Of a stretch of DNA of 64,000 nucleotides, positions 15,038 to 56,584 are shown in pieces (the stretch's first letter is position 1; every line of letters begins with the position of its first letter). A program made the translations under genes and the position numbers. This stretch comes from a virus (lineage: Duplodnaviria > Caudoviricetes), in the IMG/VR virus record IMGVR_UViG_3300032318_000487, positions 1-64,000 of that record; one strand, 5' to 3'. Below the pieces are notes generated by a model. It saw only the letters and a list, made by a program, of their open reading frames with translations. It had not been told where the DNA came from and searched no databases.

Positions 15038-15091
15038 TATTCTTAACTCCAACTTCTGCGTAGGAAACAAATTCAGAAGTATTTATGAAAT

Positions 15092-23410: not shown

Positions 23411-23439
23411 ATTATAGACGATCTTCTATGCTTTGTCAA
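23411..23439 (-). promoter_or_regulatory. Consensus sigma70 promoter TTGACA-17-TATAAT
   Basis: Exact consensus match. Confidence 0.88.
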
Positions 23440-35835: not shown

Positions 35836-36555
35836 TTAGCCTTTGATTTGTGGATACTGAACGCTATATTCCATGCGAAGAATCATTTCTGTTTCTTGCC
35901 AACTCTTCACATGATAATACTGATCTGAAAGGATTGCAATATGAAAATCGTTTTCATCTTCGTTACATTTATCACCAAAGAAGATGATCTTTTTATCATC
36001 TTCAGTTATAAAAGGAAAAATCTGACCTTTGTCATTTCCTCTTAGATGGATGTCAATTCCTAAATCACCAGCAATGTAACAGTCTAGTCTGGGTAAAAGA
36101 GACCTAATCTTTCTAACAAGATATGCTCGTTCTTTAGTCTTTTTGTCCCATTCAATATATTCCTCACGTTGCTTCTTAGTTGCGTTTCTACCCAGAACTG
36201 AAAAGTTAACAAGTCCTGTTTTCTTTTCAAAGTGATAGCCAGTTCTGGTTGCGAAGAATGATCTGTTCAACAAGGTCTCAATGATATCTTTCTCATGGTA
36301 AGTTAAATCAAATCTGTTCGAATAGATTTTCTTACTATCAGAATGATACTCATTACCACCACATGTGAAAATGCCTTCACATGCTTTAATAAGATCAGGA
36401 CCGAGTTGACTCTCAGTCTGATCTAAATCGTTTCCGGTAACAATGTAAACTTTGTTCTTTAGACAGAAAGACTTAAAGAAGTGTTTAAAGTCTGTGTCCA
36501 TTTCTTTCTTGGAGGGTGTTAGTGTGCCGTCAACGTCGAAAACAAAGATATACAT
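35836..36555 (-). CDS. HAD-IIB phosphomannomutase-like enzyme (eukaryotic PMM type)
   Basis: FDVDGTLTP, TG.HFE..TGLVNFSVLGRNA, FFGDK....NDF. Confidence 0.82.
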   Translation of the reverse strand: MYIFVFDVDGTLTPSKKEMDTDFKHFFKSFCLKNKVYIVTGNDLDQTESQLGPDLIKACEGIFTCGGNEYHSDSKKIYSNRFDLTYHEKDIIETLLNRSFFATRTGYHFEKKTGLVNFSVLGRNATKKQREEYIEWDKKTKERAYLVRKIRSLLPRLDCYIAGDLGIDIHLRGNDKGQIFPFITEDDKKIIFFGDKCNEDENDFHIAILSDQYYHVKSWQETEMILRMEYSVQYPQIKG

Positions 36556-37340: not shown

Positions 37341-37529
37341 CTATGTGTTGGATGTCAATAACAATCTTCTTTTTTCCGATTCGATATTGATCTGTTCCTT
37401 TCGCTGATTATCCGCACCGAACCATTCCGTAATCTCATCGTAAGTTCTTCCACAACCTATACACACTAAAAGCTCTTTCAATTCAGTATAGGAACAAATC
37501 TTAACACAAGGAGAATTACTTCTTGTCAT
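37341..37529 (-). CDS. DUF1289-family Cys-rich protein
   Basis: SPCVKIC....CIGCGRTYDEITEW. Confidence 0.85.
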   Translation of the reverse strand: MTRSNSPCVKICSYTELKELLVCIGCGRTYDEITEWFGADNQRKEQINIESEKRRLLLTSNT

Positions 37530-37641
37530 TATTTTCCTTCTTCTTTGTGTTCTTTTCCCTCAACTTCTGAAGTCTCTCTCTTGCTGCTTGAGACTTTTCC
37601 TTATGTGAACTTAGAGTTGATCTCTTCTTTTCCTCAGACAT
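37516..37641 (-). CDS. Basic hypothetical protein (41 aa)
   Basis: Manual translation MSEEKKRSTLSSHKEKSQAARERLQKLREKNTKKKENNDKK. Confidence 0.45.
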   Translation of the reverse strand: MSEEKKRSTLSSHKEKSQAARERLQKLREKNTKKKENNDKK

Positions 37642-38416
37642 ATTCTTTCCTCTTTATTAACTTTGCTGATAAGTTGGTGACTGTATCTAAGTTTTTGACT
37701 GAATACACTTTAGCGTTTGAATCACTACAGACCCACATCTCATCTCGAAATCTATCTGGTGCTGTTCTCAACCAAGAGTCTCTAGTTTTTGATTGAAGGT
37801 TTTTCCACCAGTCAATGGTTGATGGATCAGGTAACCTTCTTAAGTAGCTTGAGTTTGACCACCAGAAGTTACCACTGAAGTGTGGACAAGGTTCGTCAAA
37901 GTAATTAACACCAGCAACATCATGAGTATTTAGCGACTCAACACATCTTTCCCAGTTTTCGATAACACCCCAATTCAAGAACTGTCTCCAGTAATAGTAG
38001 TTCTTGAATGTACCGATGTTTCTCTTTTTAAGATGGTTATCAACTGAAGTTATGCCCTTCGTGTGTAGATACAAAGCAGTGAAGACATCATTCTGAGAAT
38101 CATTCCATATTCTTTGAAGAATGACGTTTTCAGTGATTGTCTCTGAGTTGTTGATGCCACTTAGCATGACACCATCATTTGAGTGATTGTTCTTGAACAC
38201 AATCAACTTTGCATTTGGTAGTGCAAAGCTCATACAAAGATCAGCAAATATCTTGGTTCTCTCATCTTGCTGAGAGACGCATGTTATCGTAATATCATCA
38301 AACGATGAAAGAAGATGATGGTCTTCCATCATCTTCATCTGTTCCATGAATGGATATACCCAAGTTGAATACTCATCACTTAGGTATACATGATAGTACA
38401 AATACTTTTTCATCAA
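37634..38416 (-). CDS. Putative glycosyltransferase-like protein
   Basis: LYLHTKG.S...WRQFLNW, HFSGNFWW, DEMWV; located in the glycan cluster. Confidence 0.55.
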   Translation of the reverse strand: MMKKYLYYHVYLSDEYSTWVYPFMEQMKMMEDHHLLSSFDDITITCVSQQDERTKIFADLCMSFALPNAKLIVFKNNHSNDGVMLSGINNSETITENVILQRIWNDSQNDVFTALYLHTKGITSVDNHLKKRNIGTFKNYYYWRQFLNWGVIENWERCVESLNTHDVAGVNYFDEPCPHFSGNFWWSNSSYLRRLPDPSTIDWWKNLQSKTRDSWLRTAPDRFRDEMWVCSDSNAKVYSVKNLDTVTNLSAKLIKRKEYV

Positions 38417-39648
38417 TCTACAATCTTAACTTCAGGAAAGTATTTGATAAATCTATCATACTCATTGTCTCGAATGCCCTTGATCTTGTCTCTGATCTCA
38501 TCAAAGAAGTTCCATGCTAATGGTACGAATAGAGTGGTTCCCTTCAACTTAAGAATCTCTTTCTGTGAGACAACTGGAATACTAGAACCAGGTGTGAATC
38601 TACCTTGCTTTAGTGGATTATCATCGACAATGAAATCTAGATCCAACTTAGCATAGTTCAACAGAGTCATACCCTTTGCTGCTGCACCATATCCAACGAC
38701 ATTCCAATCAATCATGCCTTGCCGAACAAAATCTGTTTGATGCTTCAACTCAGACACGATATCATTACAACGTTGTGCGTATCGTACATATGTCTCAGGA
38801 CTGTAGAGTCCATTAGATTGCTCTTCCTTAATTAGAAGATCAACGTTTCTTCCATCAAACTTCTTTCGAATCACGAAGACAAAGCTAGTACCATGAATTG
38901 GCATGTAGTCAACACCAACCAGATACAGACCAGCTCTCTTACATAACTTATCCATTGACTGAATATTGAAGAATGATACATGCTCATGATAGATTGTATC
39001 AAACTCATTGTTCTTGATCATGTTAGCTTGTGATGTTTGAATGATGAGTGTGCTATCATCATGCATAACACTCTTGGCAGTCAAGAGAAAGTTTAGTGGA
39101 TTAGGACCATGTGCAAAGACATTCTGTGCTGTTATGACATCAAAACTTAGCTTTGCTTTGTTAATTCTCTCTGCAAAATTATGATCAAACCATTCACAGA
39201 AAATAGAGTGACCCTTCTTTGAAGAAACTTCTTCAAGATTCTTTGCTGGATCAACACCAAATGTGATGAAACCCAAATCTTTGAAATAATCTAGCTGAGT
39301 ACCATCATTACAACCAACATCTAGTACAAGCTTACCCTTTGTTGTCTTTACTGCAAACTCTGCGAAAGTCTTCATGTGTGAGTGCATCGTCTTTGACGTG
39401 CCACTAACATAAAGATAATCATTGAACATCAACTCAGGATTAACTGAGTGTGTAAGTTGCACATGATAGCAATCTTCACAATGATTGATCGCAAGAGGAT
39501 ATTCTTCTTGCACATCATCTCTCTTTAACTTGAATGAGTTTGCAAGTGGTTGCTTACCCAAGTCAAGGGTAAGCTTTAAATTGCTTGAACCACATGCGAC
39601 GCAGTGGTCAAGATGTTTTACATTATCTGACGATTCTAGGTGAGACAC
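38413..39648 (-). CDS. NDP-hexose C-methyltransferase-like (Zn-binding N-terminus + class I SAM MTase + C-terminal domain)
   Basis: CVACG..L..LDLGKQPLANS, CEDCYHVQL, DVGCNDG, YHEH..FF, YGAAAKG, LAWNF. Confidence 0.9.
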   Translation of the reverse strand: MSHLESSDNVKHLDHCVACGSSNLKLTLDLGKQPLANSFKLKRDDVQEEYPLAINHCEDCYHVQLTHSVNPELMFNDYLYVSGTSKTMHSHMKTFAEFAVKTTKGKLVLDVGCNDGTQLDYFKDLGFITFGVDPAKNLEEVSSKKGHSIFCEWFDHNFAERINKAKLSFDVITAQNVFAHGPNPLNFLLTAKSVMHDDSTLIIQTSQANMIKNNEFDTIYHEHVSFFNIQSMDKLCKRAGLYLVGVDYMPIHGTSFVFVIRKKFDGRNVDLLIKEEQSNGLYSPETYVRYAQRCNDIVSELKHQTDFVRQGMIDWNVVGYGAAAKGMTLLNYAKLDLDFIVDDNPLKQGRFTPGSSIPVVSQKEILKLKGTTLFVPLAWNFFDEIRDKIKGIRDNEYDRFIKYFPEVKIVD

Positions 39649-40294
39649 GCTTCATATCCTTCTTGCCGAACTTTTCAAACACAACCATACTATCATAGAA
39701 ATGAACAGATGACAAACCCTTAGATAGCTTCCATCTACGTTCTAGCTCAGTTGTATATTGTTCTTTCCAATTCCAGTGTAGAACATCAACATACGACTTT
39801 GCATATTCAATGAATGTTGAACTCTTGTTTAGACCACCACCATTATATGACATATAACTTGTATGACAGTCTTCACAGATGTAAACACTACCTTCTGGCA
39901 TTAGAGGAAACACTTTTTCAAAAGTCAAGATTTGTTGGTCCATGAAGTGACCACCATCATCGATAAAGATATCGATGTTTCTATTGACTAAGAATGTGTC
40001 CCAGAATGAAGCTGAACTCTGATCACCAATAACAACACTGATCTTTTGATTTTTATACTTTAGATTAGCACACTCAGGATCGACATCAATTCCTGTAATG
40101 TTCTTTGCATTTGGAAAATATGTAGACCACATATCAAGTGATCCACCCTTTTGAACACCGACCTCAACAAGGTCGATGCTCTTTCCATTTAGTCTAAAGT
40201 TACTCAGATGTCTCTCATAAACATCGAAGTAAGATTCCCACTTGTCAGATGGGTGACTTAGACTTTCGTCAAAGATTTCTCTTAGTAGACTCAT
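39623..40294 (-). CDS. Class I SAM-dependent (sugar O-) methyltransferase
   Basis: KW..YF.VYERH, EVGVQKGGSL, GDQS, IDDGGH, YICED. Confidence 0.85.
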   Translation of the reverse strand: MSLLREIFDESLSHPSDKWESYFDVYERHLSNFRLNGKSIDLVEVGVQKGGSLDMWSTYFPNAKNITGIDVDPECANLKYKNQKISVVIGDQSSASFWDTFLVNRNIDIFIDDGGHFMDQQILTFEKVFPLMPEGSVYICEDCHTSYMSYNGGGLNKSSTFIEYAKSYVDVLHWNWKEQYTTELERRWKLSKGLSSVHFYDSMVVFEKFGKKDMKRVSPRIVR

Positions 40295-41334
40295 AGTTCA
40301 ATCCATTCTTTGTTTGCAAGGGACCAGTCAACAACTTCCTTGATGCGTTCATTTAGTGTGAACCTTGGTTCCCAACCTAGTTCTCGCATATAATCTCCAG
40401 ACAATGCATAACGTAGATCATGGCCTGGTCTTGACGTATGGAAGTCAATCATTTCATAGATCGGATCTTTGTTCTGTGCCCTAGCAATGATGTTGACCAG
40501 ATCAAGATTGTTGATCTCTTCCTTACCAACAACATTGAACTTTGGACACTTTGCACCACCAAAGTCTGGCTCGTAGACCTTAGACAGAACCTTCTCATCC
40601 TTCATGTTAAGAAGGAAGTACATTGCTTCGGCAACATCCTTAGCGTGAATATAGAAGCGACTACCAGGAATAGTCTTCGTCTCGTCAGAATGAATGAAAA
40701 TCTTTTCGTTATCTCGAATCTTTCGAATACACATTGGAATGAACTTCTCTGGATGCTGTCTTTCACCAAAGACGTTCATTGTATGTGTGATGAAGATTGG
40801 AAGCTTGTACGTGTTCTCGTAAGCGACACAAAACTCTTCTGCTGCTGCCTTTGAAGCTGAGTATGGATTCGTTGAGTTGTAACGATCACGTTCCTTGTAT
40901 GAAACACCAGGTGGTGCAATACCAAAGATTTCATCTGTACTGAAATAGATCATTCGCTCAAGATTCTTCAGTGAACGTGCATAGTTGAGAATGTTCACTG
41001 TTCCAATGGTATTGTCCATAACAAATTCCATTGGATGAGTAATTGACCGATCAACGTGACTTGAAGCAGCAAGATGCAAGATGATGTTTACATCACCAAT
41101 AAAGTTTGAATTGATCTCTTTGATTTCAGCCTTAAGATCATGCCAAACGATCTTAACACGCTTTCGAGTTGATGCTGGATAACGAGACACAACATTATCT
41201 AAGCGGTTAAGATTACCAGAATAGTCTAGACGATCAAGAGATACGATTTCCCAATCAGTCTTTTGAAGAAAGAGATCAATGATGTGATGACCAATAAAAC
41301 CAGCACCACCAGTAATAAGAACCTTCTTTGTCAT
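40291..41334 (-). CDS. rmlB: dTDP-glucose 4,6-dehydratase-like extended SDR
   Basis: GGAGFIG, HLAASSHVDRSI, STDEIFG, YSASK, RPGHDLRY. Confidence 0.88.
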   Translation of the reverse strand: MTKKVLITGGAGFIGHHIIDLFLQKTDWEIVSLDRLDYSGNLNRLDNVVSRYPASTRKRVKIVWHDLKAEIKEINSNFIGDVNIILHLAASSHVDRSITHPMEFVMDNTIGTVNILNYARSLKNLERMIYFSTDEIFGIAPPGVSYKERDRYNSTNPYSASKAAAEEFCVAYENTYKLPIFITHTMNVFGERQHPEKFIPMCIRKIRDNEKIFIHSDETKTIPGSRFYIHAKDVAEAMYFLLNMKDEKVLSKVYEPDFGGAKCPKFNVVGKEEINNLDLVNIIARAQNKDPIYEMIDFHTSRPGHDLRYALSGDYMRELGWEPRFTLNERIKEVVDWSLANKEWIEL

Positions 41335-41351
41335 ATTATCTTTTCACCTTT

Positions 41352-42098
41352 TCATTTTAATTTACAAGCACTAAGAGTCTCTTGTGTATCGGTATACTTA
41401 TATTCAAGTCCAAAACGATCTTTCATATACTTAGGAAACCAATCTTGCATAAGATAGTCCATCTCTTTAAAAGCATTTGTCTTATCATACCAAGATTCAC
41501 GTCGCATATGCTTAATTGAAGATGCATGGATGACATGTGCTGTCTGTCTTAGATAGTAACACATGATCTTATCAATGCCCCATTCAGACTCATTATATAC
41601 GTAATCAGACAGTAATGTCAACACTTTTCTGAATATGTCCGCTCTATAAAATGGAACTCCCATTTCAGTGAAGTTCGTTTCTGTGAAAAGAAACTCAGGC
41701 TTTTGTTCTAAGCAAGGATAAACAGTCCATGATCTTAGAGACTGCTGAAATAGTCTCATATCAAACTGTCTAGCAAGCTGCAATGCCTTCTCTACAGATT
41801 GAATGTCTGTACAATAATCATCATCCCAATATCCGATGTAATCATAGTCCCACCAGCAGATTCCATTCGTTGCTAGAAAAGAGCATAGTTCTGGCAGTTT
41901 CTTCCACTTATGACGAACAGGATAATGAAAGAAGTGATCATACGAATCCATCTCAGGAACATAGTCTTCTTTAAAACCTATAACGCACACTTCATATGTG
42001 CGTCCAGGCTTTACGAATCTCCAATGATTTTCCCTATCATACTCATCGTCATAGAACATAGGACAACCAGTTGGAGTGATGATCAGTGCCTTATCCAT
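41352..42098 (-). CDS. DUF707-family glycosyltransferase-like protein
   Basis: YDYIGYWDDD, LFQQSL, ETNFTEMGVPFY, WGID. Confidence 0.7.
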   Translation of the reverse strand: MDKALIITPTGCPMFYDDEYDRENHWRFVKPGRTYEVCVIGFKEDYVPEMDSYDHFFHYPVRHKWKKLPELCSFLATNGICWWDYDYIGYWDDDYCTDIQSVEKALQLARQFDMRLFQQSLRSWTVYPCLEQKPEFLFTETNFTEMGVPFYRADIFRKVLTLLSDYVYNESEWGIDKIMCYYLRQTAHVIHASSIKHMRRESWYDKTNAFKEMDYLMQDWFPKYMKDRFGLEYKYTDTQETLSACKLK

Positions 42099-42981
42099 TG
42101 TTCAAGGCTCCGACATAAACATTGTTCTCAAACCAGTTTAGAAAGCGAGTCTTGTCCATGAACTTGTTTGCCCTCTGATAGTCTGCAAACATTGGCTGAA
42201 GATACATTTCTTCATAAAGATCAGGAGTTTCATCGATCTCTTTGATTGCTTCAAAGAAGTCTTTGTCATTGCCATAGTCATGCCAGTTAAGAAAAGCTTT
42301 CGTATTGAAGTCAGTTTCGACTGTGGGACTACCCCAATAGATTGGAACAGTCTTAGCACACAATGCTTCATAAAGCTTTTCAGTTGCATAACCAGGATAA
42401 GATGAGTTCTCAAAACAAAGATTGAACTTATATGAGTTGAGAAACTTCAATTTAGCTGCGACTGACTCTTCACCTCTAGGTAGAATATATCCGATGTTAT
42501 TATACAATGGTCCACCAGATGCAACATGCTTGTATGAACTTAGAATATGAAACCAGTCATTTCTCTTTTTACAAGCTTCATTCTTAACAACAAATGAACA
42601 AAAGCCCTTCTTCTCTAGAAGATCAGATGGTGTTCTGTTGATGTTACTTGTGTTAGGTACATCTCTAAAGTGATTGTCATAATCATAGATTACCCAAAGT
42701 GGCAATCGATAGTTCTTGCCACCAAACTCATCATGATCGAATGAGATAGAGAAGTGGCACCTGTAGTCCCAAGGTCTTGCGTTCTCACCTGTATAGAAAA
42801 TCTTTATACAGTTCTTAGAGTCGTATGATGTATTGTTGTTTCCAAAGTTCTTATCACCGAAGATAAGATAATCTGGATTAACATCGTCTCTTACTACTTC
42901 AAATCGCTCAGACAGAATTTTGATAAAGAAGTTTTCAATGGCACCAAACGTGTCTGTAAATCCAAGTCTTAGTTTTTTCAT
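42091..42981 (-). CDS. Glycosyltransferase family 10 (alpha-1,3-fucosyltransferase-like)
   Basis: YKFNLCFENSSYPGYATEKLYEAL...TVPIYWG (alpha-1,3-FucT motif). Confidence 0.92.
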   Translation of the reverse strand: MKKLRLGFTDTFGAIENFFIKILSERFEVVRDDVNPDYLIFGDKNFGNNNTSYDSKNCIKIFYTGENARPWDYRCHFSISFDHDEFGGKNYRLPLWVIYDYDNHFRDVPNTSNINRTPSDLLEKKGFCSFVVKNEACKKRNDWFHILSSYKHVASGGPLYNNIGYILPRGEESVAAKLKFLNSYKFNLCFENSSYPGYATEKLYEALCAKTVPIYWGSPTVETDFNTKAFLNWHDYGNDKDFFEAIKEIDETPDLYEEMYLQPMFADYQRANKFMDKTRFLNWFENNVYVGALNNG

Positions 42982-44021
42982 ACCATAGAGTTCCTGATCA
43001 CAATCTGTTCTTCAATCCATTCGTAAGTATTCTTTAGTCCCTGATAAAGATCATGCTTTGAGTGCCAGTTTAGCTTTTCTTCAATTAGTCGATTGTCTGA
43101 GTTTCTACCTCTCACACCGACTGGCCCTGGAATATGATTAATGTCAATCTTCTTGTTTGCAACTGTTGCAGCAGTGACTACGAGATGATTGATTGTTACC
43201 ATCTCTTCAGATCCGATATTAACTGGACCCATGAAGTCGTCTTGTTCCATGAACAATCTAACTGCCCTGATGCAGTCGTCAATATAGAGGAATGATCTTG
43301 TCTGCTTTCCATCACCCCAAATGTCAATGATATCATCAATGCTCATTGCAATCTTTCTACAGATTGCAGCAGGTGCCTTTTCTTTGCCACCATCCCATGT
43401 GCCTAGTGGACCATAGATATTGTGGAAACGAGCAACACGAATAGGAATACCATAATTACGATTATAAGCGAAATAAAGACGCTCGCTGAATAACTTTTCC
43501 CAACCATACTCACTATCCGGGTTTGCAGGGTATGCACTACTCTCAACACAGTTTGGATTGTCTGGATCCATCTGATTGTGTTCTGGATAGATACATGCCG
43601 AAGATGAATAGAAAATCTTTGTCTTGTTAATCTTATTGATCTTGTTATATACTTTTACAGAGTCAAGAACATTCAGATTGATTGTAGCAGAGTTATGCAT
43701 AACATCTGCATCATGATCACCAGTAAAGATGTATCCTGCACCACCCATGTCTGCTGCAAACTGATAAATCTCATCGAATGGTCGATCAAACTGCATTGCA
43801 AACGTCTGATATGGATTACGACTGACACCAGCATAACTGATTACTTGCCTCACAATGTCATAGTCTCTGAGATCAGCAATCACAAAGTGATCAGCAAAAG
43901 TCTTAGAGAACTCTGGATACTTAAGATCAACACCTCGTACCCAGTATCCTTCTGACTTTAGACGATTTACCATGTGATTGCCGATAAATCCACCAGCACC
44001 AAGAACTAACGCTGTCTTCAT
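42978..44021 (-). CDS. GDP-mannose 3,5-epimerase-like SDR
   Basis: GAGGFIG, AADMGGAGYI, SSACIYP, YGWEKLFSE, EKAPAAICRK, GVRGRNSDN. Confidence 0.88.
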   Translation of the reverse strand: MKTALVLGAGGFIGNHMVNRLKSEGYWVRGVDLKYPEFSKTFADHFVIADLRDYDIVRQVISYAGVSRNPYQTFAMQFDRPFDEIYQFAADMGGAGYIFTGDHDADVMHNSATINLNVLDSVKVYNKINKINKTKIFYSSSACIYPEHNQMDPDNPNCVESSAYPANPDSEYGWEKLFSERLYFAYNRNYGIPIRVARFHNIYGPLGTWDGGKEKAPAAICRKIAMSIDDIIDIWGDGKQTRSFLYIDDCIRAVRLFMEQDDFMGPVNIGSEEMVTINHLVVTAATVANKKIDINHIPGPVGVRGRNSDNRLIEEKLNWHSKHDLYQGLKNTYEWIEEQIVIRNSMV

Positions 44022-44027
44022 GTTAAT

Positions 44028-44531
44028 TTACCTCCTATACCAAAACCAAACAGATCGATTTGAAACAAGAATCGGAGTGCCAATTTTGTTTCTTTTCCTA
44101 AAAGAACTCAACTGTTCTTTGACAGAAACAAGTTCATGTCCGTTACCACAAAAAATACCACCTGGTCTAACAGAATCATAGTATAGCTCAAGTGTTTCGC
44201 AAGTGCAAGCTGTTTTGTCAATTCCAACGAGATCGACTTTCTTTCCCTTCACTTTCTTGATCTTGTCTGTCAGTGTCTTTGTGTTTTCATCGAACACGGG
44301 TTGATACTGACTTTCCTCATTTGAATAGTAGATTTTACTCACATTAGGACAAGATTCAAGAATATCATAGATGCTTTCACCCTTAAGATCGTTCTTAAGA
44401 GTAAGAACAACATCATCCTTATCTAGTCTCTTGATATATGAAATCATTGCCCTTGAGATGAGATCAGCATCGGGCCACATATCAAACTGCTTTCTTTGCT
44501 CAATTGTGAAAAGTTCTGGATCCATAAACAT
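44028..44531 (-). CDS. Divergent methyltransferase-like protein
   Basis: YDSVRPGGIFCGNG resembles the post-II region of Methyltransf_24 enzymes; motif I is not recognisable. Confidence 0.45.
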   Translation of the reverse strand: MFMDPELFTIEQRKQFDMWPDADLISRAMISYIKRLDKDDVVLTLKNDLKGESIYDILESCPNVSKIYYSNEESQYQPVFDENTKTLTDKIKKVKGKKVDLVGIDKTACTCETLELYYDSVRPGGIFCGNGHELVSVKEQLSSFRKRNKIGTPILVSNRSVWFWYRR

Positions 44532-44537
44532 GATATA

Positions 44538-45434
44538 TCAATACTCCTCATACATCTTTTGAATTTCGTCATTCAGTTTTTTAACTCTATCATACTGATG
44601 AACAATTGCATATAGCTGATTGTGTACATTCTTTACATATGCACCGTCAATTACTGGCTGATAGTCATCAAACAGTTCAAGATACTTCATTGTGTCATTT
44701 TGATACTTTGCACCAATATCACCTGAACCTGATGTGACAGCATGAATCGACGTACCAAGATTGATTGCCCATGAGTCAGCACATGATAGCTTCAGTGTGT
44801 CGTCAGAATATGGTGGAAAGTTTAGAAGGAAGTTATAAACAGCCTGATCTACAATCGGAATAGGTCTGTTCACACTCATCTGAAAGATCATCATCATCAG
44901 ACCTTTCACATAATCAAAGTTACCTGCAACAACACCAACGTTGAAGATATACTTGTCCTTAATTAGATTGTGGAAGAATGGACCAAATGTATCATATAAG
45001 TTCTGATTGCTCCAGGGTTCATTCTGATACTTCATACCCTCAGAGCTTGCAACAAGAAGACTTGAAACAATGTTGCTTCTTAACCACTCTGAGGGATCAG
45101 TCTGAAACAGAACATCTCTAGTGTCTGTAGTGATTACGTTGTTGTACTTCTCTTTTGTGTTATTAAGAAACATCCAAAGATAAAAGAATCTCTCTACATG
45201 TGGTGCATTGTTTGTTGGAGATACAACGTCACCATTTTCGTTTTGCTTTCCATAGAGAGAAAGAATAACTCCTTCTTGCTGAAGCTTCTCGATAGTTTCT
45301 CTCTTGATGTTTGTTCCTACGACTGCAATGTCACCAGAGAATCCAGTCTTCTTCAAAGACTTTATCCAAATCTTGAGCTGATTCCAATCGTAGTTTGATG
45401 CAGCACCAATCACTAAGTCTTTATTACTCATCAT
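44538..45434 (-). CDS. Putative GT-A-like glycosyltransferase
   Basis: TTDTRDVLFQTDP, FNVGVVAG, DQAVYN, IVHQYDR. Confidence 0.6.
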   Translation of the reverse strand: MMSNKDLVIGAASNYDWNQLKIWIKSLKKTGFSGDIAVVGTNIKRETIEKLQQEGVILSLYGKQNENGDVVSPTNNAPHVERFFYLWMFLNNTKEKYNNVITTDTRDVLFQTDPSEWLRSNIVSSLLVASSEGMKYQNEPWSNQNLYDTFGPFFHNLIKDKYIFNVGVVAGNFDYVKGLMMMIFQMSVNRPIPIVDQAVYNFLLNFPPYSDDTLKLSCADSWAINLGTSIHAVTSGSGDIGAKYQNDTMKYLELFDDYQPVIDGAYVKNVHNQLYAIVHQYDRVKKLNDEIQKMYEEY

Positions 45435-45435
45435 A

Positions 45436-46095
45436 TTATACCTTCACGTAAAAGTCATCACACCTAGAGATTTCTGAAAACTTTCTCTGGTAGCCGTTAG
45501 CAACGAGAAGTCCAAAGAGTTTCTTTCTAATCACGGGAACATAATTGTGTTCTATAGTTATATATCTGATATCATACTGATCATTGTTTGACTTTAGAAA
45601 CTCATACAGAATGTCATACTCACTACCTTCAGTATCAATCGATAGATAGTCAATCACTTTTGGTGCATCATACTTCTTAAGAAGATCAAGCAGAGTGATA
45701 GTCTTTACCATGGTCACATCATTAGATGCATTTCTTTTGTGATTATGTTCGTCTTCTGTACCAAATCCCTTGATTGTCGATAGATCAGGTGCATTTGTGT
45801 TTAGAAACTCTACGTAAGTATCGGACTTAGTGTATACACAATCGGTTGAAATGTGACACTTCCTATTCTTTAATAGTGCTTCATGCCATGTAACGTTAGG
45901 TTCAGCTACGATACCATTCCACGAGTACTCTGTTTCAAGAAGATAGCTATTGTTGATTGTGATTCCATCTGTTGCACCAAAGTCAACAAAGTATCCACCT
46001 GTCTTCTTGTTTGTCTCATACAGAACCCATGCATCTTGCATATTCTGCGATACTGAATTGTTTAGTGTTGAATGAAATTTTAAAAAGTTTTCCAC
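45436..46095 (-). CDS. FkbM-family methyltransferase
   Basis: SQNMQD, FVDFGATDG...NS, EPN, YLSIDTEGSE. Confidence 0.9.
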   Translation of the reverse strand: MENFLKFHSTLNNSVSQNMQDAWVLYETNKKTGGYFVDFGATDGITINNSYLLETEYSWNGIVAEPNVTWHEALLKNRKCHISTDCVYTKSDTYVEFLNTNAPDLSTIKGFGTEDEHNHKRNASNDVTMVKTITLLDLLKKYDAPKVIDYLSIDTEGSEYDILYEFLKSNNDQYDIRYITIEHNYVPVIRKKLFGLLVANGYQRKFSEISRCDDFYVKV

Positions 46096-46814
46096 GGCAG
46101 CTTTCCATTATAAGTTACGTTTTGATTATTATTACCATTGATGAAGAATGATTCTTTGACTGAACCTTCGTTACCATCAAGTCTGTAACAAAGTGTATGC
46201 TTTCTTGATGAGTCGTGATTAGATCTATCTTTGATTAGAGAGAAAAATCTTCTATCACCACCCCAACCAAAATGCCAAAGATTACAAGTCTGAACAAGAA
46301 AATCTCTCTTGAATAGATACGAAGACGTATCAACAAGATACTCTTCTTTATTGTGCCAAATTGGCCACTTTCCTAAACTCTCACAGTTATCTTCGATAAG
46401 AAAATTGCCATCTGAATTGTGAATCTTTCTCATACTGTATGCAAAGTTTAAATTCTTTGACTCTATTGTAGAGACGAGACTTTCAATATGTTCTGGGTCA
46501 TACCAGTTGTCTTCATCTAGAAAGGCAACATACTCACTGTTGATCAGATGTGGATATGAAGCATAGATGCGATGGCCGTAGAAGCCATTTGCACCTGTGT
46601 TTTCTGGTGATACTGCTAGTTGAACTTTTGGATCTGGATTAGAAACTTCAACGTATTGAACAGCTTTGTTGAAATACTGTGGTCCATCAACAACGATAAG
46701 ATGTTTGATGCTTTTGTATGTCTGATTACGTACACCTTCCATTGCATCTCTAAGTTTATGAGAGCCAATAGTTGGTGTGATCACTGTAACAGACTTTTCA
46801 ATTCTTAGCTTCAT
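46080..46814 (-). CDS. Glycosyltransferase family 2
   Basis: VITPT, IVVDG, YVAFLDEDNW DxD motif. Confidence 0.88.
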   Translation of the reverse strand: MKLRIEKSVTVITPTIGSHKLRDAMEGVRNQTYKSIKHLIVVDGPQYFNKAVQYVEVSNPDPKVQLAVSPENTGANGFYGHRIYASYPHLINSEYVAFLDEDNWYDPEHIESLVSTIESKNLNFAYSMRKIHNSDGNFLIEDNCESLGKWPIWHNKEEYLVDTSSYLFKRDFLVQTCNLWHFGWGGDRRFFSLIKDRSNHDSSRKHTLCYRLDGNEGSVKESFFINGNNNQNVTYNGKLPWKTF

Positions 46815-46844
46815 AATAACTCCACATGATCATATAGAAAGAAA

Positions 46845-46866
46845 GGGAATTTTCATCCCCTTTCTG
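46845..46866 (-). terminator. Probable terminator after the hsp20/DUF1127 operon
   Basis: GAAAGGG...CCCTTTC inverted repeat. Confidence 0.5.
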
Positions 46867-46870
46867 AGTG

Positions 46871-47041
46871 TTATTGTTTTATCTTTCTAGACGCTTCTTT
46901 AGTAACATGATATATCTCACCGCGAGTGATACCTAAATCTTTCAAGTCTTTGTTTGATAAGTTCTGAAGTTCTTTGGTAGCCCGCTTTCTATAACGAAAT
47001 CTTTCGAAGCAATATGAAATTTCTTCAATTAAGATTGTCAT
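46871..47041 (-). CDS. DUF1127 (YjiS-like) small protein, 56 aa
   Basis: Manual translation ...RYRKRATKELQNLSNKDLKDLGITRGEI... Not in ORF track. Confidence 0.85.
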   Translation of the reverse strand: MTILIEEISYCFERFRYRKRATKELQNLSNKDLKDLGITRGEIYHVTKEASRKIKQ

Positions 47042-49007: not shown

Positions 49008-50327
49008 TTATCTAGAAACTTCTTCCCAATCTATTGTGACAAGTGCATCATCACCTGCTACGGCTGTAGCCATAGTTACAGTAACAGGATAAGACGTGTG
49101 TGTCAACCCATTTCTTTCAAGCTGAAACTTAAATAGTGCTTCCTTAAGAATATCTGTAGCTACAGATGCCTGTGTTGATGATGTTACGTATCCAGAAGCA
49201 AGAGTTCTACCGCCTGTTGCAGTATTTGCAGTCAGATCATACTCGACTGAAGAGTTTGTATCCGCTGAAGTCCATGTCGTATTAGCTAGAGTTGGATTAG
49301 CAATAACTTTCCATTTCGCTCTGGCATTATTACCCACACATAAAATAGACAGAGCCGTTATGATAACGATAGCATCTTGTCTGGCCTGCTTCAATCTTAT
49401 TGAAACTATAGGAACATCTACACCTGGTGTACCACCCATATCTTTAGGTGATTGAACAGGTGTACCAACAGACTGTTGCGACCCTCTAAGTTCATATCCA
49501 CCTTCAGTTATAACAGAAGAGCAAATTTGCTTCAGCATACTGTTGCTCGTTGTTATACCCGTATTGAATATCTCATATCTTAAAGGTAGAGAGGCGGTCT
49601 GAATGTATGTAGATGTTATGTAGTTGGCATGGTGAAATGAATGGCAGTGTATGAATTGACCGTCGATGACAAATCCACATCTTACTGTGCCTAGACCAAG
49701 CCATTCGATATCTGTCCATAAAATCTGAGCCTTACTCATATCCAAAGTTCTCTGAGAAGGACTACCTGCCGTAGCACCTAATAGAGTATCATAGTTCCAG
49801 TCTGCTTGATTGACTCTTGTTTCAAGAACACTACCACTGACAATTGATCTTTCAACAAACGAGATCGTGTTACCTGTTTGCTCAAGATAGATACCATTGT
49901 TTGCGCCGAAGTATCCAACTCTCTGTGTTAGATTGGCTTTGGCTGGTTCCATAACAAAAGTGTTGAGTACAAGAAGAGACTTACCAGGTTGATAAGAGAA
50001 AACTTTTGTCGTCTCACGAACAATGTTTGCACTGTTTGCTGTTGTGATAGCAAGATTGACCAAACCTTCGTTCGGCGAGAAAGTGACTGTGCTATTTCCA
50101 GCAGCACTATTCGCGGTATCCCAAAGACCATTATCTGCATATCTATGTGAAGAATCGAATAAGGTAAGAGGAGTAGAAACTCTTGATCTACCGAAAGCAT
50201 CAATTGCAACACCAGTAGGATTAGCAGGACCAACTTGATTGCCATATTGATCTGCCAACATGACGACTTCAAAAAGAGTTTTCTCTTGCGGTAGATATTG
50301 ATGCGAATCGATTCTAAACTGTGCCAT
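49008..50327 (-). CDS. Conserved T4-like/cyanophage beta-rich protein (probable virion component)
   Basis: DAFGRSRVSTPLTLFDS, YQPGKS, DIEWLGLGTVRCGF, QICSSVITEGG. Confidence 0.65.
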   Translation of the reverse strand: MAQFRIDSHQYLPQEKTLFEVVMLADQYGNQVGPANPTGVAIDAFGRSRVSTPLTLFDSSHRYADNGLWDTANSAAGNSTVTFSPNEGLVNLAITTANSANIVRETTKVFSYQPGKSLLVLNTFVMEPAKANLTQRVGYFGANNGIYLEQTGNTISFVERSIVSGSVLETRVNQADWNYDTLLGATAGSPSQRTLDMSKAQILWTDIEWLGLGTVRCGFVIDGQFIHCHSFHHANYITSTYIQTASLPLRYEIFNTGITTSNSMLKQICSSVITEGGYELRGSQQSVGTPVQSPKDMGGTPGVDVPIVSIRLKQARQDAIVIITALSILCVGNNARAKWKVIANPTLANTTWTSADTNSSVEYDLTANTATGGRTLASGYVTSSTQASVATDILKEALFKFQLERNGLTHTSYPVTVTMATAVAGDDALVTIDWEEVSR

Positions 50328-56542: not shown

Positions 56543-56584
56543 ATTATACATGAATTGGAGAGGATGTCAACCGAATCCTCTCCA
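56543..56584 (-). promoter_or_regulatory. Promoter TTGACA-16-TATAAT overlapping a 10-bp hairpin
   Basis: TGGAGAGGAT/ATCCTCTCCA inverted repeat; hexamers at 56565-56570 and 56543-56548. Confidence 0.7.

What the first reader, a model, noticed from the sequence alone, without database searches (positions are those of the whole stretch)
37634..46814. Eleven-gene phage glycan pathway: GDP- and dTDP-sugar tailoring, three or four methyltransferases and about five glycosyltransferases
Contiguous, overlapping or abutting genes encode: GT2; FkbM MTase; a GT-A-like protein; an MTase-like protein; a GDP-mannose 3,5-epimerase-like enzyme; GT10; a DUF707 GT-like protein; a dTDP-glucose 4,6-dehydratase; an O-MTase; an NDP-hexose C-MTase; and a GT-like protein. 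A eukaryote-type PMM lies ~1 kb further downstream. Established: GME converts GDP-D-Man to GDP-L-Gal/L-Gul, GT10 enzymes transfer GDP-L-Fuc-type sugars, and a 4,6-dehydratase plus C3-MTase gives branched 3-C-methyl-6-deoxy sugars. Inference: the phage builds a methylated, branched oligosaccharide rather than a single-sugar modification. The acceptor is unknown; candidates are virion proteins (S/T-rich tracts occur in the late proteins here), host LPS/EPS (superinfection exclusion) or DNA.
Basis: partly seen in the sequence, partly recalled or inferred. Interest (0 to 1): 0.8.

Follow-up and report, generated by a model that had tools for sequence, protein, structure and literature searches.

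The report
Phage cassette building methylated sugar chains
An uncultured T4-like phage carries eleven intact, soluble enzymes that can make rare sugars, join about five sugars into a chain and methylate it; such phage sugar-gene clusters are already known in marine phages, but what the chain is attached to is still unknown.

Summary
Observation confirmed. 37634-46814 holds eleven abutting minus-strand genes. All eleven first-reader calls hold at fold or family level: GT2, FkbM methyltransferase, a virus-type GT-A enzyme, a degenerate Methyltransf_24 paralogue, GDP-mannose 3,5-epimerase with catalytic residues intact, GT10, a GT-A enzyme with a DDD motif, an RmlB-type 4,6-dehydratase, a MycE/TylE-like sugar O-methyltransferase, a sugar 3-C-methyltransferase, and a DUF8361 GT-A-like enzyme. 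PMM lies 1.1 kb downstream.

New here:
- The cassette is syntenic in 31 unique uncultured T4-like phage contigs. The glycosyltransferases are core and the O-methyltransferase-type genes are accessory.
- It has host-sigma70-type promoters, including a perfect one inside o07 that splits it into two units. It lacks the late motif found before virion genes.
- No membrane, lipid-carrier, nucleotidyltransferase or 4-ketoreductase gene is present.
- A TAGT DNA glycosyltransferase elsewhere in the window does not co-occur with the cassette.

The phage most likely builds a methyl-capped oligosaccharide in the cytoplasm from host GDP-mannose and dTDP/UDP-glucose. The acceptor is unresolved: I slightly favour phage proteins (about 0.4) over host envelope glycan (about 0.35).

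Comparable clusters are known in cyanomyoviruses (P-SSM2, S-SSM7, DSL-LC02) and pelagimyophages. This scan had already noted the cassette or close variants in at least seven other genomes. Verdict: new variant of a known kind, moderate interest.

The parts
46080..46814 (-). o01, family-2 glycosyltransferase (GT-A), first gene of unit A
   Evidence: PF00535 at 39.2 bits, E 9e-10. Weak TuaG/AglG/WcaA-type NCBIfam hits. DXD present as LDEDN and no membrane segment. Present in 30 of 31 unique cassettes.
45436..46095 (-). o02, FkbM-family SAM methyltransferase (accessory)
   Evidence: PF05050 at 48.6 bits. TIGR01444 at 36.3 bits, just under its 37.7 cut-off. Present in 15 of 31 cassettes.
44538..45434 (-). 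o03, GT-A-fold glycosyltransferase of a virus-dominated family
   Evidence: No Pfam hit. The ESM Atlas model (pTM 0.91) has viral neighbours: TM 0.79-0.82 to domains of viral GT29/GT7 fusion proteins, and 10% of one neighbouring cluster carries PF03407. Among orthologues, 6 of 26 weakly hit GT_PLOD and 3 of 26 hit Nucleotid_trans. Invariant D104-x-R106-D107. Present in 30 of 31 cassettes.
44028..44531 (-). o04, degenerate Methyltransf_24-type paralogue (accessory; activity doubtful)
   Evidence: hhalign against a bona fide Methyltransf_24 family (A6) gives 99.4%, E 3e-21 over 150 columns. The family lacks A6's invariant motif-II Asp and the DFIFIDGLH/GHD residues. The window's copy has also lost the first Gly of motif I (LTLKNDLKGES). 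Present in 19 of 31 cassettes.
42978..44021 (-). o05, GDP-mannose 3,5-epimerase (GME)
   Evidence: 296 bits to Arabidopsis GME 2c59, against 83 bits for the next SDR family. The alignment conserves SSACIYPE (Ser and Cys), YGxEK, and the Lys in GGKEKAPAA. Present in 25 of 31 cassettes.
42091..42981 (-). o06, GT10 alpha1,3-fucosyltransferase-family enzyme
   Evidence: FucT_N at 72 bits plus Glyco_transf_10 at 63 bits. H. pylori FucT 2nzw at E 8e-34. Motif FNLCFENSSYPGYATEK. Present in 29 of 31 cassettes.
41352..42098 (-). o07, GT-A glycosyltransferase with invariant DDD, phage-specific family; last gene of unit A
   Evidence: AlphaFold pLDDT 92.8. Foldseek gives 229 PDB hits at E<=1e-3, including SpsA, RmlT, TarP, ppGalNAc-T and WrtF. 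Invariant D92-D93-D94. The only hit in 185,579 species' genomes is a mis-binned phage contig.
41592..41621 (-). Perfect sigma70-type promoter (TTGACA-18-TATAAT) inside o07, about 260 nt before o08; start of unit B
   Evidence: 12 of 12 match. The same offset (about +470 in o07) recurs in 15 loci, and 11 more loci have one upstream of o08. Such perfect sites occur 119 times on the coding strand and 0 times on the other strand in 2.1 Mb of related loci.
40291..41334 (-). o08, NDP-glucose 4,6-dehydratase (RmlB type; dTDP or UDP)
   Evidence: PDB dTDP-glucose 4,6-dehydratases at E 8e-51. TIGR01181 at 247 bits, below its 365 cut-off. Catalytic STDEIFG and YSASK, with GGAGFIG. Present in 30 of 31 cassettes.
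39623..40294 (-). o09, metal-dependent sugar O-methyltransferase (MycE/TylE/CmcI type; accessory)
   Evidence: The orthologue profile hits MycE 3ssm at E 1e-23, TylE 8ia9 at 4e-21 and CmcI at 2e-6. phrog_21658 methyltransferase at 78 bits. Present in 18 of 31 cassettes. A different 194-aa Methyltransf_24 gene occupies the same slot in 11 of 65 loci.
38413..39648 (-). o10, NDP-hexose 3-C-methyltransferase (TylC3/KijD1/TcaB9 type)
   Evidence: Zn-binding Methyltransf_13 (67 bits) + Methyltransf_23 + C-terminal Methyltransf_14 (106 bits). PDB 4rv9 at E 7e-62, 5t64 at 2e-46. Present in 27 of 31 cassettes.
37634..38416 (-). o11, GT-A-like glycosyltransferase of the DUF8361 (PF27674) family, no invariant DxD
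   Evidence: AlphaFold pLDDT 93.8. VIA-align Z 10-11 to hyaluronan synthases, GlcAT-P, mannosylglycerate synthase and WrtF. BFVD hits to giant-virus multidomain glycosyltransferases at TM 0.67-0.69, E 1e-15. 640 longer homologues fuse DUF8361 to Methyltransf_24, GT10, GT25 and GT2. There is also an RmlD-type SDR fusion.
46829..46865 (-). Hairpin terminator (46865-46840) plus T-run after the DUF1127 ORF, overlapping a weak sigma70-like site (ATGAAA-16-TATGAT) about 15 nt before the o01 start
   Evidence: In relatives, 12 of 50 unique o01 upstream regions carry a sigma70 match of 11/12 or better, and 1 of 50 carries a late motif.
35836..36555 (-). Eukaryote-type phosphomannomutase, probable feeder for GDP-mannose
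   Evidence: PF03332 at 67.7 bits. A PMM homologue lies downstream of the cassette in 7 related loci.

Best explanation
The cassette is an early-expressed, fully cytoplasmic glycan-assembly line, vertically inherited in a clade of uncultured T4-like myoviruses.

Shown by sequence or fold:
- Unit A (o01-o07) encodes GT2, FkbM methyltransferase, two virus-type GT-A enzymes, a true GDP-mannose 3,5-epimerase and a GT10 enzyme.
- Unit B (o08-o11) has its own perfect sigma70 promoter. It encodes an NDP-glucose 4,6-dehydratase, a sugar 3-C-methyltransferase, a MycE/TylE-like sugar O-methyltransferase and a DUF8361 glycosyltransferase.

Inferred:
- Host GDP-mannose, boosted by the phage PMM, is epimerised to GDP-L-galactose or GDP-L-gulose and transferred by GT10.
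- Host dTDP- or UDP-glucose is dehydrated, C3-methylated and reduced by an enzyme not encoded here. o11 then transfers it as a 6-deoxy-3-C-methyl-hexose, which is O-methylated.
- Three further glycosyltransferases add common host sugars.
- The product is a methyl-capped oligosaccharide of about five residues.

Most speculative step: the acceptor is a phage protein (the virion surface), as in chloroviruses and mycobacteriophages, rather than host LPS.
For: Enzymology (confidence about 0.85): for the sequence-defined enzymes; for the four fold- or profile-defined ones.

Functional conservation: the same gene order occurs in 31 unique contigs, with 50-89% amino-acid identity and intact ORFs.

Transcription:
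- 119 versus 0 strand-specific perfect sigma70 promoters, recurring before o01 and o08.
- The late-type ATAAATA motif lies before virion-type genes but not at the cassette.

Cytoplasmic and soluble:
- No hydrophobic segment in any of the 11 proteins.
- No polytopic protein among 364 ORFs in 31 cassettes.
- No Bac_transf, WecA-type, Wzy_C/ligase or ABC2 membrane gene in three complete relatives.

For a phage-protein acceptor:
- The core glycosyltransferases belong to virus-dominated families. o03's Atlas clusters are 94-100% viral. o07 is absent from 185,579 species' genomes apart from a mis-binned phage contig. o11's nearest folds are giant-virus multidomain glycosyltransferases.
- The cassette sits at a fixed locus and is about as conserved as neighbouring core genes, unlike strain-variable O-antigen genes.
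- PBCV-1 offers a precedent: soluble, early-expressed glycosyltransferases and methyltransferases cap capsid glycans with methylated 6-deoxyhexose (PMC9614988).
- S/T-rich tracts occur in the large virion-type proteins.
Against: - No direct evidence of any glycoprotein exists, and the phage and its host are uncultured.
- Early sigma70 promoters fit host-surface remodelling at least as well as virion decoration.
- Soluble glycosyltransferase and methyltransferase sets with methyl-type terminators also build O-antigens on host undecaprenyl carriers and are exported by host transporters (PMC11231755).
- The literature on T4-like marine phages favours LPS modification (PMC1079782, PMC7029224).
- The 4-ketoreductase and all nucleotidyltransferases are missing, so the exact sugars are uncertain.
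- The equivalence of DUF8361 with A064R-D2 was not verified.
- The contig is only about 47% complete.
Confidence: 0.4

Rival explanations
1. Host-envelope remodelling. The soluble enzymes assemble or extend a glycan on the host's undecaprenyl-linked O-antigen, LPS core or capsule intermediates early in infection. Host flippase or ABC transporter and ligase export it. This changes the cell surface to block superinfection or to stop progeny re-adsorbing to lysing cells.
For: - Early sigma70-type promoters.
- 6-deoxy, C-methyl and O-methyl sugars and GT2/GT10 enzymes are typical O-antigen chemistry. o01's best NCBIfam hits are TuaG/WcaA-type.
- Methyl caps terminate ABC-transporter-type O-antigens made by soluble modules (PMC11231755).
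- This is the published hypothesis for P-SSM2 (PMC1079782) and pelagimyophages (PMC7029224).
- Untested notes of this scan report a porin/RlpA 'envelope toolkit' in the same genome.
Against: - No initiating transferase, flippase, polymerase, ligase or ABC2 permease occurs in any cassette or in three complete relatives. The phage glycan would have to be compatible with host machinery in every host.
- The core glycosyltransferases are virus-specific rather than host-derived.
- The cassette is conserved and syntenic across deep divergence, whereas O-antigens are strain-variable.
Confidence: 0.35
2. DNA hypermodification. The glycosyltransferases extend a sugar placed on hydroxymethyl-pyrimidines of phage DNA, for example by the TAGT enzyme at 58930-59913, giving an oligosaccharide-decorated genome that resists restriction.
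For: - The window encodes a strong TAGT homologue (PF20691, 150 bits). Its relatives in Aeromonas and Tenacibaculum T4-like phages are annotated as HMC glucosyltransferases.
- Phage glycosyltransferases can build mono- to trisaccharides on 5hmC, sometimes with a partner epimerase (bioRxiv 10.1101/2023.12.21.572611).
Against: - TAGT is absent from two complete cassette-bearing relatives, G002 and G003.
- No ThyA-type hydroxymethylase occurs in three complete relatives, and there is no TET/JBP hit (although the control was silent).
- TAGT lies about 12 kb away, beside gp46/47.
- Five glycosyltransferases plus C- and O-methylation exceed any known DNA glycan.
Confidence: 0.05
3. A soluble or small-molecule product. 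The cassette makes a free methylated oligosaccharide or glycosylates a metabolite or lipid (as macrolide-sugar tailoring enzymes do), or it simply diverts host sugar-nucleotide pools.
For: - The nearest solved relatives of o09 and o10 are natural-product sugar-tailoring enzymes.
- No acceptor-defining component is encoded.
Against: - No aglycone-forming or polyketide genes are present.
- Five conserved glycosyltransferases imply a defined polymeric acceptor.
- No precedent in phages is known to me.
Confidence: 0.07
4. Artefact: a bacterial O-antigen fragment mis-assembled into a viral contig, or decaying cargo without function.
For: The contig comes from a metagenome and is incomplete.
Against: - The same cassette lies between Hsp20/dUTPase and ThyX/PMM in dozens of independent contigs, including complete 164-202 kb genomes with terminal repeats.
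- All ORFs are intact and catalytic motifs are conserved.
- GC content matches the flanks.
Confidence: 0.01

Closest known systems
'LPS/cell-surface' sugar gene clusters of T4-like cyanomyoviruses: P-SSM2 (24 genes, PMC1079782), S-SSM7 (NC_015287, 199.9-210.4 kb) and DSL-LC02 (OR032571, 91.9-102.4 kb)
   Same: - The carrier is a T4-like marine or freshwater myovirus.
- They are contiguous blocks of nucleotide-sugar SDRs, methyltransferases and several soluble glycosyltransferases with no export genes.
- DSL-LC02 has a 4,6-dehydratase, C-methyltransferase, FkbM methyltransferase and about 7 glycosyltransferases in a row.
- GME homologues of 64-66% identity occur in 37 cyanomyovirus records.
- The function is untested in all of them.
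   Different: - DNA polymerase is only about 52% identical, and there is no nucleotide-level similarity.
- The composition differs: here an RmlB-type (not GMD-type) dehydratase feeds the C-methyltransferase, no GDP-fucose synthase is present, and GME is paired with GT10.
- GT10 occurs in only one cultured phage, S-SKS1, at 39% identity.
- o03, o07 and o11 were not detected in those clusters.
- This cassette is a conserved, fixed-locus module rather than a strain-specific island.
Chlorovirus PBCV-1 capsid-glycan machinery (A064R, A061L, A111/114R; PMC9614988)
   Same: - Soluble cytoplasmic viral glycosyltransferases and SAM methyltransferases are expressed early and build a methyl-capped glycan ending in a 6-deoxyhexose.
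- A064R-D2 is a cation-independent glycosyltransferase of a novel family, followed by a methyltransferase domain and with GT10-annotated homologues.
- o11's family (DUF8361) lacks an invariant DxD, is fused to Methyltransf_24 and GT10 domains in hundreds of proteins, and its best fold matches include a 638-aa viral protein, the same length as A064R.
   Different: - That system belongs to a eukaryotic giant virus with multidomain proteins, whereas here the genes are separate in a bacteriophage.
- I could not obtain the A064R sequence, so the o11 to A064R-D2 link is a lead, not a test.
- Glycosylation of a virion protein is not shown here.
Pelagimyophage glycosyltransferase/LPS-related genes (PMC7029224)
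   Same: These are uncultured T4-like aquatic myoviruses with many O-chain-type genes, proposed to alter the host surface.
   Different: Those genes are described as lying in or near a hypervariable host-recognition cluster, in groups of two or three, and are dominated by GT8. Here there is one conserved 11-gene cassette between Hsp20 and ThyX/PMM.
Mycobacteriophage virion glycosylation (Che8, Corndog, Myrna; cited in PMC12363180)
   Same: Phage-encoded glycosyltransferases, with methyltransferases in some phages, glycosylate the phage's own capsid and tail tube in the cytoplasm.
   Different: The hosts are Gram-positive-type actinobacteria, the gene sets are small, there are no sugar-nucleotide tailoring branches, and no sequence relationship was tested here.
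Deoxysugar tailoring in antibiotic pathways (TylC3/KijD1/TcaB9 3-C-methyltransferases; MycE/TylE sugar O-methyltransferases)
   Same: o10 and o09 are clear homologues. The chemistry is C3-methylation of an NDP-4-keto-6-deoxyhexose and metal-dependent O-methylation of a 6-deoxyhexose.
   Different: Those enzymes act in actinomycete secondary metabolism with dedicated ketoreductases and aglycones. Neither is present here.
Phage DNA sugar-hypermodification gene clusters (C5-MT/5mYOX plus glycosyltransferases; bioRxiv 10.1101/2023.12.21.572611)
   Same: They are phage glycosyltransferases related to LPS enzymes, sometimes paired with an epimerase, and make up to trisaccharides.
   Different: The defining 5hmC/5hmU-generating module is not adjacent and was not found. 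The TAGT in this genome does not co-occur with the cassette.

Membership tests
GDP-mannose 3,5-epimerase (GME) | Closest to characterised GMEs, well separated from other extended SDRs | tested here: met
   296 bits to 2c59 and 287 bits to 8sg0, against 83 bits for the next family.
GDP-mannose 3,5-epimerase (GME) | SDR Ser/Tyr/Lys triad plus the Cys and Lys acid/base pair (C145/K217 in Arabidopsis; residue roles from my own knowledge of the 2c59 work) | tested here: met
   SSACIYPE, YGWEK and GGKEKAPAA align with the Arabidopsis residues.
GDP-mannose 3,5-epimerase (GME) | Converts GDP-D-mannose to GDP-L-galactose/L-gulose | not testable with these tools
   Needs an enzyme assay.
dTDP-glucose 4,6-dehydratase (RmlB) | Thr-Asp-Glu and YxxxK catalytic residues, GxxGxxG NAD site | tested here: met
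   STDEIFG, YSASK and GGAGFIG. PDB RmlB hits at E 8e-51.
dTDP-glucose 4,6-dehydratase (RmlB) | Scores above the NCBIfam equivalog cut-off (dTDP specificity) | tested here: not met
   TIGR01181 scores 247 bits against a cut-off of 365. A UDP-glucose 4,6-dehydratase is equally possible.
NDP-hexose 3-C-methyltransferase (TylC3/TcaB9/KijD1) | Three-domain architecture: N-terminal Zn-binding domain, SAM domain, C-terminal C-methyltransferase domain | tested here: met
   Methyltransf_13 at 67 bits, Methyltransf_23 at 72 bits, Methyltransf_14 at 106 bits. 4rv9 at E 7e-62.
GT10 alpha1,3/4-fucosyltransferases | FucT_N plus GT10 C-terminal domain with the FxxxFENSxxxxYxTEK motif | tested here: met
   Both Pfam domains score above their cut-offs. 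2nzw at E 8e-34. Motif present. The donor (GDP-L-Fuc versus GDP-L-Gal) is untested.
   The window protein has no hit even at E 10. Only 1 of 28 orthologues hits, at E 1.4e-3. The GT-A fold and DDD motif are firm.
DUF8361 / PF27674 (o11) | Homology to proteins annotated with PF27674 | tested here: met
   The orthologue profile hits 640 longer proteins. Nearly all of the listed 120 carry PF27674, with E down to 1e-47. The domain is named DUF8361. The model itself is not in my Pfam copy.
PBCV-1 A064R domain 2 type rhamnosyltransferase | Sequence or structural alignment to A064R residues 213-438; cation-independent inverting glycosyltransferase | tested here: inconclusive
   No A064R sequence was available. 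Indirect evidence only: the best BFVD hit is an unnamed 638-aa viral protein, there is no invariant DxD, and the fusions with Methyltransf_24 and GT10 are the same.
Class I SAM methyltransferase, Methyltransf_24/TylF/CmcI type (o04) | Homology to the family | tested here: met
   hhalign to the 194-aa Methyltransf_24 family gives 99.4%, E 3e-21. That family's first member scores 63 bits on PF13578.
Class I SAM methyltransferase, Methyltransf_24/TylF/CmcI type (o04) | Intact motif I glycines, motif II acidic residue and metal-binding Asp/His | tested here: not met
   The o04 family lacks the GIDPY Asp and the DFIFIDGLH/GHD residues. The window's copy reads LTLKNDLKGES at motif I.
T4-like phage 'LPS gene' clusters (P-SSM2 type) | T4-like myovirus carrying a contiguous block of sugar-nucleotide enzymes and glycosyltransferases without export genes | tested here: met
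   T4-like replication genes. Cassette anatomy. No membrane proteins.
Serotype-converting O-antigen modification systems of phages (GtrABC, Oac) | Membrane flippase GtrA, bactoprenol glycosyltransferase GtrB, and a polytopic GtrC or acyltransferase | tested here: not met
   The cassette proteins have no membrane segments and no polytopic ORFs occur in 31 cassettes. Gtr families were not searched by their own HMMs.
Phage DNA glycan hypermodification clusters | Glycosyltransferases linked to a 5hmC/5hmU-forming module (C5-MT + TET/5mYOX, or ThyA-type hydroxymethylase) | tested here: not met
   No PF00303 hit in 5 records, including 3 complete genomes. The PF12851 search found nothing, but its control was silent, so that half is inconclusive. 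TAGT is uncoupled from the cassette.

The most novel reading that the evidence does not exclude
A widespread clade of T4-like bacteriophages autonomously glycosylates its own virion in the bacterial cytoplasm. The glycan is a methyl-capped oligosaccharide containing L-galactose or L-gulose and a 3-C-methyl-6-deoxyhexose. It is built by virus-specific glycosyltransferase families, one of which (DUF8361) is shared with the capsid-glycan machinery of giant algal viruses. That would make virus-encoded capsid glycosylation an ancient strategy spanning phages and eukaryotic giant viruses.
Probability: 0.3. Interest if true: 0.8.

Novelty: new variant of a known kind. Interest (0 to 1): 0.5.

Why it matters
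Large sugar-gene clusters have been seen in marine T4-like phages since 2005, but their product and target have never been determined. This cassette is a compact and conserved example. It has a core of seven to eight genes plus optional methyltransferases. Its enzymes are soluble, it has defined early promoters and two separable units, and three of its enzymes (GME, the dehydratase and the C-methyltransferase) have assayable predicted products. That makes the open question of what phage glycan clusters decorate directly testable by expression in a laboratory host or in cultured analogues.

Several further results would follow:
- If the target is the virion, it would extend virus-encoded capsid glycosylation from giant viruses and mycobacteriophages to abundant aquatic myoviruses.
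- The analysis gives a first functional context for DUF8361.
- It shows that GME, usually regarded as a plant vitamin-C-pathway enzyme, is common but mis-annotated in cyanophages.

Tried and rejected
- **Close DNA relatives:** megablast of the cassette against 50,697 phage records found only two short patches.
- **Sequence profiles of o03, o04, o07 and o11 against PDB sequences:** nothing, or noise only. Folds were needed.
- **DUF707 for o07 and DUF7952 for o11:** not confirmed as memberships.
- **o04 against the o09 family by hhalign:** only 18% probability. Superseded by the 99.4% match to the 194-aa Methyltransf_24 family.
- **T4 late promoter TATAAATA:** 0 copies in the window. The shorter ATAAATA core marks the virion-type genes instead. 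A note from another genome claiming a late promoter before a variant cassette was tested. Late motifs are not enriched before o01 (1 of 50), but exact TATAAATA lies before Hsp20 in 14 of 33 relatives, so late read-through is possible in some.
- **General sigma70 scan:** not enriched overall (31 found against 38.6 expected). Only the perfect-consensus class is informative.
- **Nucleotidyltransferase, RmlC, ThyA, TET, Bac_transf, WecA-type, Wzy_C and ABC2_membrane genes:** none found in the contig or in three complete relatives.
- **A second SDR that could act as 4-ketoreductase:** none in the 79 kb contig. An extra SDR follows o11 in only 7 related loci.
- **Collagen-like repeats as a hydroxylysine/hydroxyproline acceptor:** none found. 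I considered this because a P4H-type 2OG oxygenase sits in 19 related cassettes and o03 orthologues weakly hit GT_PLOD.
- **Cellular origin or mis-assembly:** rejected. The only hit among species genomes is a mis-binned phage contig.
- **Literature:** no paper mentions DUF8361. The Klebsiella 'new GT family' paper is unrelated to o11.
- **ESM Atlas:** the first call for o04 failed and was repeated.

Full report
**Context.** The window is 64 kb of a single 79.4 kb IMG/VR viral contig, about 47% complete by CheckV. It belongs to a divergent T4-like myovirus. It carries gp43-type DNA polymerase, UvsX, gp41 helicase, gp46/47 and CobS. The polymerase is only about 52% identical to those of Synechococcus myoviruses, its nearest cultured relatives. 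All genes in the region run on the minus strand, and GC content (0.35-0.39) matches the flanks.

**Observation.** Eleven abutting or overlapping ORFs fill 37634-46814. I call them o01 to o11 in transcription order.

Seven have significant Pfam matches. Comparison with solved structures makes the key calls specific:
- o05 is a GDP-mannose 3,5-epimerase. It scores 296 bits to the Arabidopsis enzyme, against 83 bits for the next SDR family. It is roughly 55-60% identical by inspection of the alignment. The Ser/Tyr/Lys triad and the Cys and Lys acid/base residues are conserved.
- o08 is an RmlB-type 4,6-dehydratase (E 8e-51) with STDEIFG and YSASK. It scores below the dTDP-specific equivalog cut-off, so UDP-glucose is also possible.
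- o10 is a three-domain sugar 3-C-methyltransferase (E 7e-62 to 4rv9).
- The o09 orthologue profile hits the sugar O-methyltransferases MycE and TylE at E 1e-23 and 4e-21.
- o06 matches H. pylori alpha1,3-fucosyltransferase at E 8e-34 and keeps the GT10 motif.
- o01 is GT2 with a DXD motif. o02 is FkbM.

**The four unassigned proteins.** Orthologues from related viral contigs gave alignments A1 to A4. Sequence profiles found no solved relative.
- o07: AlphaFold with the alignment gave a confident model (pLDDT 93). It is a GT-A glycosyltransferase, with 229 Foldseek hits at E<=1e-3 including SpsA, RmlT, TarP and ppGalNAc-T, and it has an invariant DDD. The DUF707 label is not confirmed.
- o11: the model is also confident (pLDDT 94) and GT-A-like, with Z 10-11 to hyaluronan synthases, GlcAT-P and mannosylglycerate synthase. 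Its best matches are domains of giant-virus multidomain glycosyltransferases (TM 0.67-0.69, E 1e-15). Its profile finds 640 longer proteins in which the same domain, annotated PF27674 = DUF8361, is fused to Methyltransf_24, GT10, GT25, GT2, GT17 or FkbM domains. In a Myxococcota MAG it is fused to an RmlD-type SDR next to a Methyltransf_24 gene. That ties the family to 6-deoxyhexoses. o11 has no invariant DxD.
- o03: it belongs to a virus-only family with a GT-A fold. Some orthologues weakly match GT_PLOD or Nucleotid_trans.
- o04: it is homologous to a genuine Methyltransf_24 family (hhalign 99.4%) but has lost that family's conserved acidic and metal-binding residues. The window's copy has also lost a motif-I glycine. 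I count it as a degenerate paralogue.

The tally is therefore five glycosyltransferases, three intact methyltransferases plus one doubtful, and two sugar-nucleotide tailoring enzymes. PMM lies 1.1 kb downstream.

**Conservation.** GT10 and C-methyltransferase queries retrieved 137 viral loci. The whole cassette recurs in the same order, next to Hsp20 and dUTPase upstream and ThyX or PMM downstream. Relatives include complete 164-202 kb genomes.

In 31 unique cassette-spanning contigs:

| Gene | Contigs with it (of 31) |
|---|---|
| o01, o03, o08, o11 | 30 |
| o06 (GT10), o07 | 29 |
| o10 (C-methyltransferase) | 27 |
| o05 (GME) | 25 |
| o04 | 19 |
| o09 | 18 |
| o02 (FkbM) | 15 |

The five glycosyltransferases, the dehydratase and the C-methyltransferase form the core. 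GME is near-core, and the other three methyltransferase-type genes are accessory. An alternative 194-aa Methyltransf_24 gene sometimes fills o09's slot.

Relatives insert other genes into the cassette: a P4H-type 2OG oxygenase (19 loci), a UDP-glucose dehydrogenase and extra SDRs. One complete genome carries o07-o11 alone, with other partners upstream.

The o07 family was found in no cellular genome among 185,579 species. The single hit is a mis-binned phage contig that carries the whole cassette. That search was motif-based, so it is not exhaustive.

**Transcription.** Perfect TTGACA-N16-18-TATAAT sites occur 119 times on the coding strand and never on the other strand in 2.1 Mb of related loci. 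One lies inside o07 in the window (41621-41592), about 260 nt before o08. It recurs at the same offset in 15 loci, and others have one just upstream of o08.

Sigma70 matches of 11/12 or better precede o01 in 12 of 50 unique upstream regions. In the window, o01 follows a DUF1127 micro-ORF and a hairpin terminator that overlaps a weak sigma70-like site.

The late-type core ATAAATA is the most enriched 7-mer upstream of genes in the window. It sits before six genes, including the large virion-type genes, and it is absent from the cassette.

The cassette therefore consists of two early-type units, A (o01-o07) and B (o08-o11). In some relatives Hsp20 carries an exact TATAAATA (14 of 33), so late read-through cannot be excluded.

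**What is missing.**
- No nucleotidyltransferase or RmlC occurs in the contig, and no nucleotidyltransferase occurs in three complete relatives. Activated sugars must come from the host.
- There is no SDR other than o05 and o08 in the contig. The 4-ketoreduction needed after C3-methylation is unaccounted for here. Seven relatives have an extra SDR after o11.
- No membrane protein occurs in any cassette.
- No initiating transferase, ligase/polymerase or ABC2 permease occurs in complete relatives.

**Mechanism.**
Shown: the enzyme families and their intact catalytic motifs.
Inferred:
1. GDP-mannose is epimerised to GDP-L-Gal/L-Gul and transferred by GT10. GT10 also occurs without GME in a few of the relatives, so its donor is not certain.
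2. NDP-glucose is dehydrated and C3-methylated.
3. It is reduced by an unknown enzyme.
4. The DUF8361 enzyme o11 transfers it.
5. It is O-methylated by o09 and/or o02.
6. o01, o03 and o07 add common sugars.

**Acceptor.**
- DNA is unlikely. The window does encode a TAGT DNA glycosyltransferase at 58930-59913 (150 bits). However, TAGT is absent from two complete cassette-bearing relatives, and no hydroxymethylase was found.
- Host LPS or capsule, the published hypothesis for P-SSM2 and pelagimyophages, fits early expression and the chemistry. Soluble modules with methyl terminators do build O-antigens.
- Phage protein is supported by the virus-specific core glycosyltransferases, the fixed-locus vertical conservation, the total absence of carrier or export genes, and precedents in chloroviruses and mycobacteriophages. 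S/T-rich tracts in virion proteins are permissive only.
- My weights are: phage protein about 0.4, host envelope about 0.35, other about 0.13.

**Comparison and novelty.** Cultured cyanomyoviruses already carry analogous clusters. DSL-LC02 has GMD, a C-methyltransferase, GDP-fucose synthase, FkbM and about seven glycosyltransferases. S-SSM7 has three epimerases (one of them a GME homologue), a methyltransferase, UGDH and glycosyltransferases. So the kind is known.

This cassette differs in three ways:
- Composition: RmlB-fed C-methylation, GME with GT10, and three virus-type glycosyltransferases.
- Conservation: it is a core module of its clade.
- Anatomy: it has a two-promoter architecture.

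This scan's own index shows the same or variant cassettes noted in at least seven other genomes. I rate it a new variant of a known kind, of moderate interest. Its value is that it makes the long-open question of what phage glycan clusters decorate experimentally tractable.

Noticed in passing
window 58930-59913 (-): A 327-aa protein is a strong TET-associated glycosyltransferase (TAGT, PF20691, 150 bits). It has 46-50% homologues in Aeromonas, Tenacibaculum and Vibrio T4-like phages annotated as beta-glucosyl-HMC-alpha-glucosyltransferase. It suggests glycosylated DNA bases in this phage, yet no hydroxymethylase or TET was found. It is present in G000 and G004 and absent from complete G002 and G003.
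   Followed up: partly
window 56543-56570, 41592-41621, 23411-23439 (-); loci L001-L139: Perfect sigma70 consensus promoters (TTGACA-N16-18-TATAAT) are strictly strand-specific in this phage clade: 119 on the coding strand and 0 on the other in 2.1 Mb. This is a ready-made map of early transcription units.
   Followed up: partly
window, upstream of 2427-3032, 3072-5951, 6410-13018, 13526-15070, 16044-16487, 21326-21934; CTAAATAC before 49008-50327: ATAAATA is the most enriched 7-mer in the 60 nt upstream of genes and marks the large virion-type genes. It is probably the late-promoter core. The full T4 motif TATAAATA is absent from the window but precedes Hsp20 in 14 of 33 relatives.
   Followed up: partly
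window 46871-47041 (-) and 37341-37529 (-): Two micro-ORFs flank the cassette: a DUF1127 protein (56 aa, 33.7 bits) followed by a hairpin terminator, and a DUF1289 protein (62 aa, 49.5 bits). Both families are typical of proteobacteria (from my own knowledge) and may hint at the host.
   Followed up: no
phage records, e.g. NC_015287.1 200671-201726 (L138 8992-10047): GME homologues of 64-66% identity occur in 37 deposited phage records, mostly cyanomyoviruses (S-SSM7, S-T4, S-SCSM2R, S-H68 and others). They are annotated as UDP-glucose 4-epimerase or generic epimerase, which looks like a systematic under-annotation.
   Followed up: partly
L139 (OR032571.1 91.9-102.4 kb): Cultured Synechococcus phage DSL-LC02 has an 11-12 gene row: GDP-mannose 4,6-dehydratase, C-methyltransferase, GDP-fucose synthase, FkbM and about seven glycosyltransferases. 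It is a GDP-based counterpart of unit B and a tractable experimental model.
   Followed up: no
L143 (CALMMZ010000232.1, 54 kb contig of a MAG): This contig, binned as an 'uncultured bacterium' MAG, carries dUTPase, Hsp20 and the whole o01-o11 cassette in phage order. It is a phage contig mis-binned into a bacterial MAG, or possibly a clue to the host.
   Followed up: partly
L047 11573-12373 and 18 other loci; L066 857-1894; L138 6746-8010: A prolyl-hydroxylase-type 2OG-Fe(II) oxygenase sits between o07 and o08 in 19 related cassettes. Similar oxygenases adjoin the sugar clusters of a 202 kb relative and of S-SSM7. This could mean hydroxylation of a protein acceptor or of a sugar. None occurs in this contig.
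   Followed up: partly
L142 5482-7179 (Myxococcota MAG) and L140 10001-12787 (giant-virus-like contig): DUF8361 is fused to an RmlD-type SDR in a bacterium and to GT10 + GT25 domains in a giant-virus contig. These are Rosetta-stone links that could assign this domain of unknown function to 6-deoxyhexose transfer.
   Followed up: partly
L066 7476-12048 (complete 202 kb genome G002): Unit B with o07 (o07-o11) occurs on its own, preceded by a GT17, another Methyltransf_24 and a 2OG oxygenase-DUF6817 protein. This shows the cassette is built from exchangeable sub-modules.
   Followed up: no
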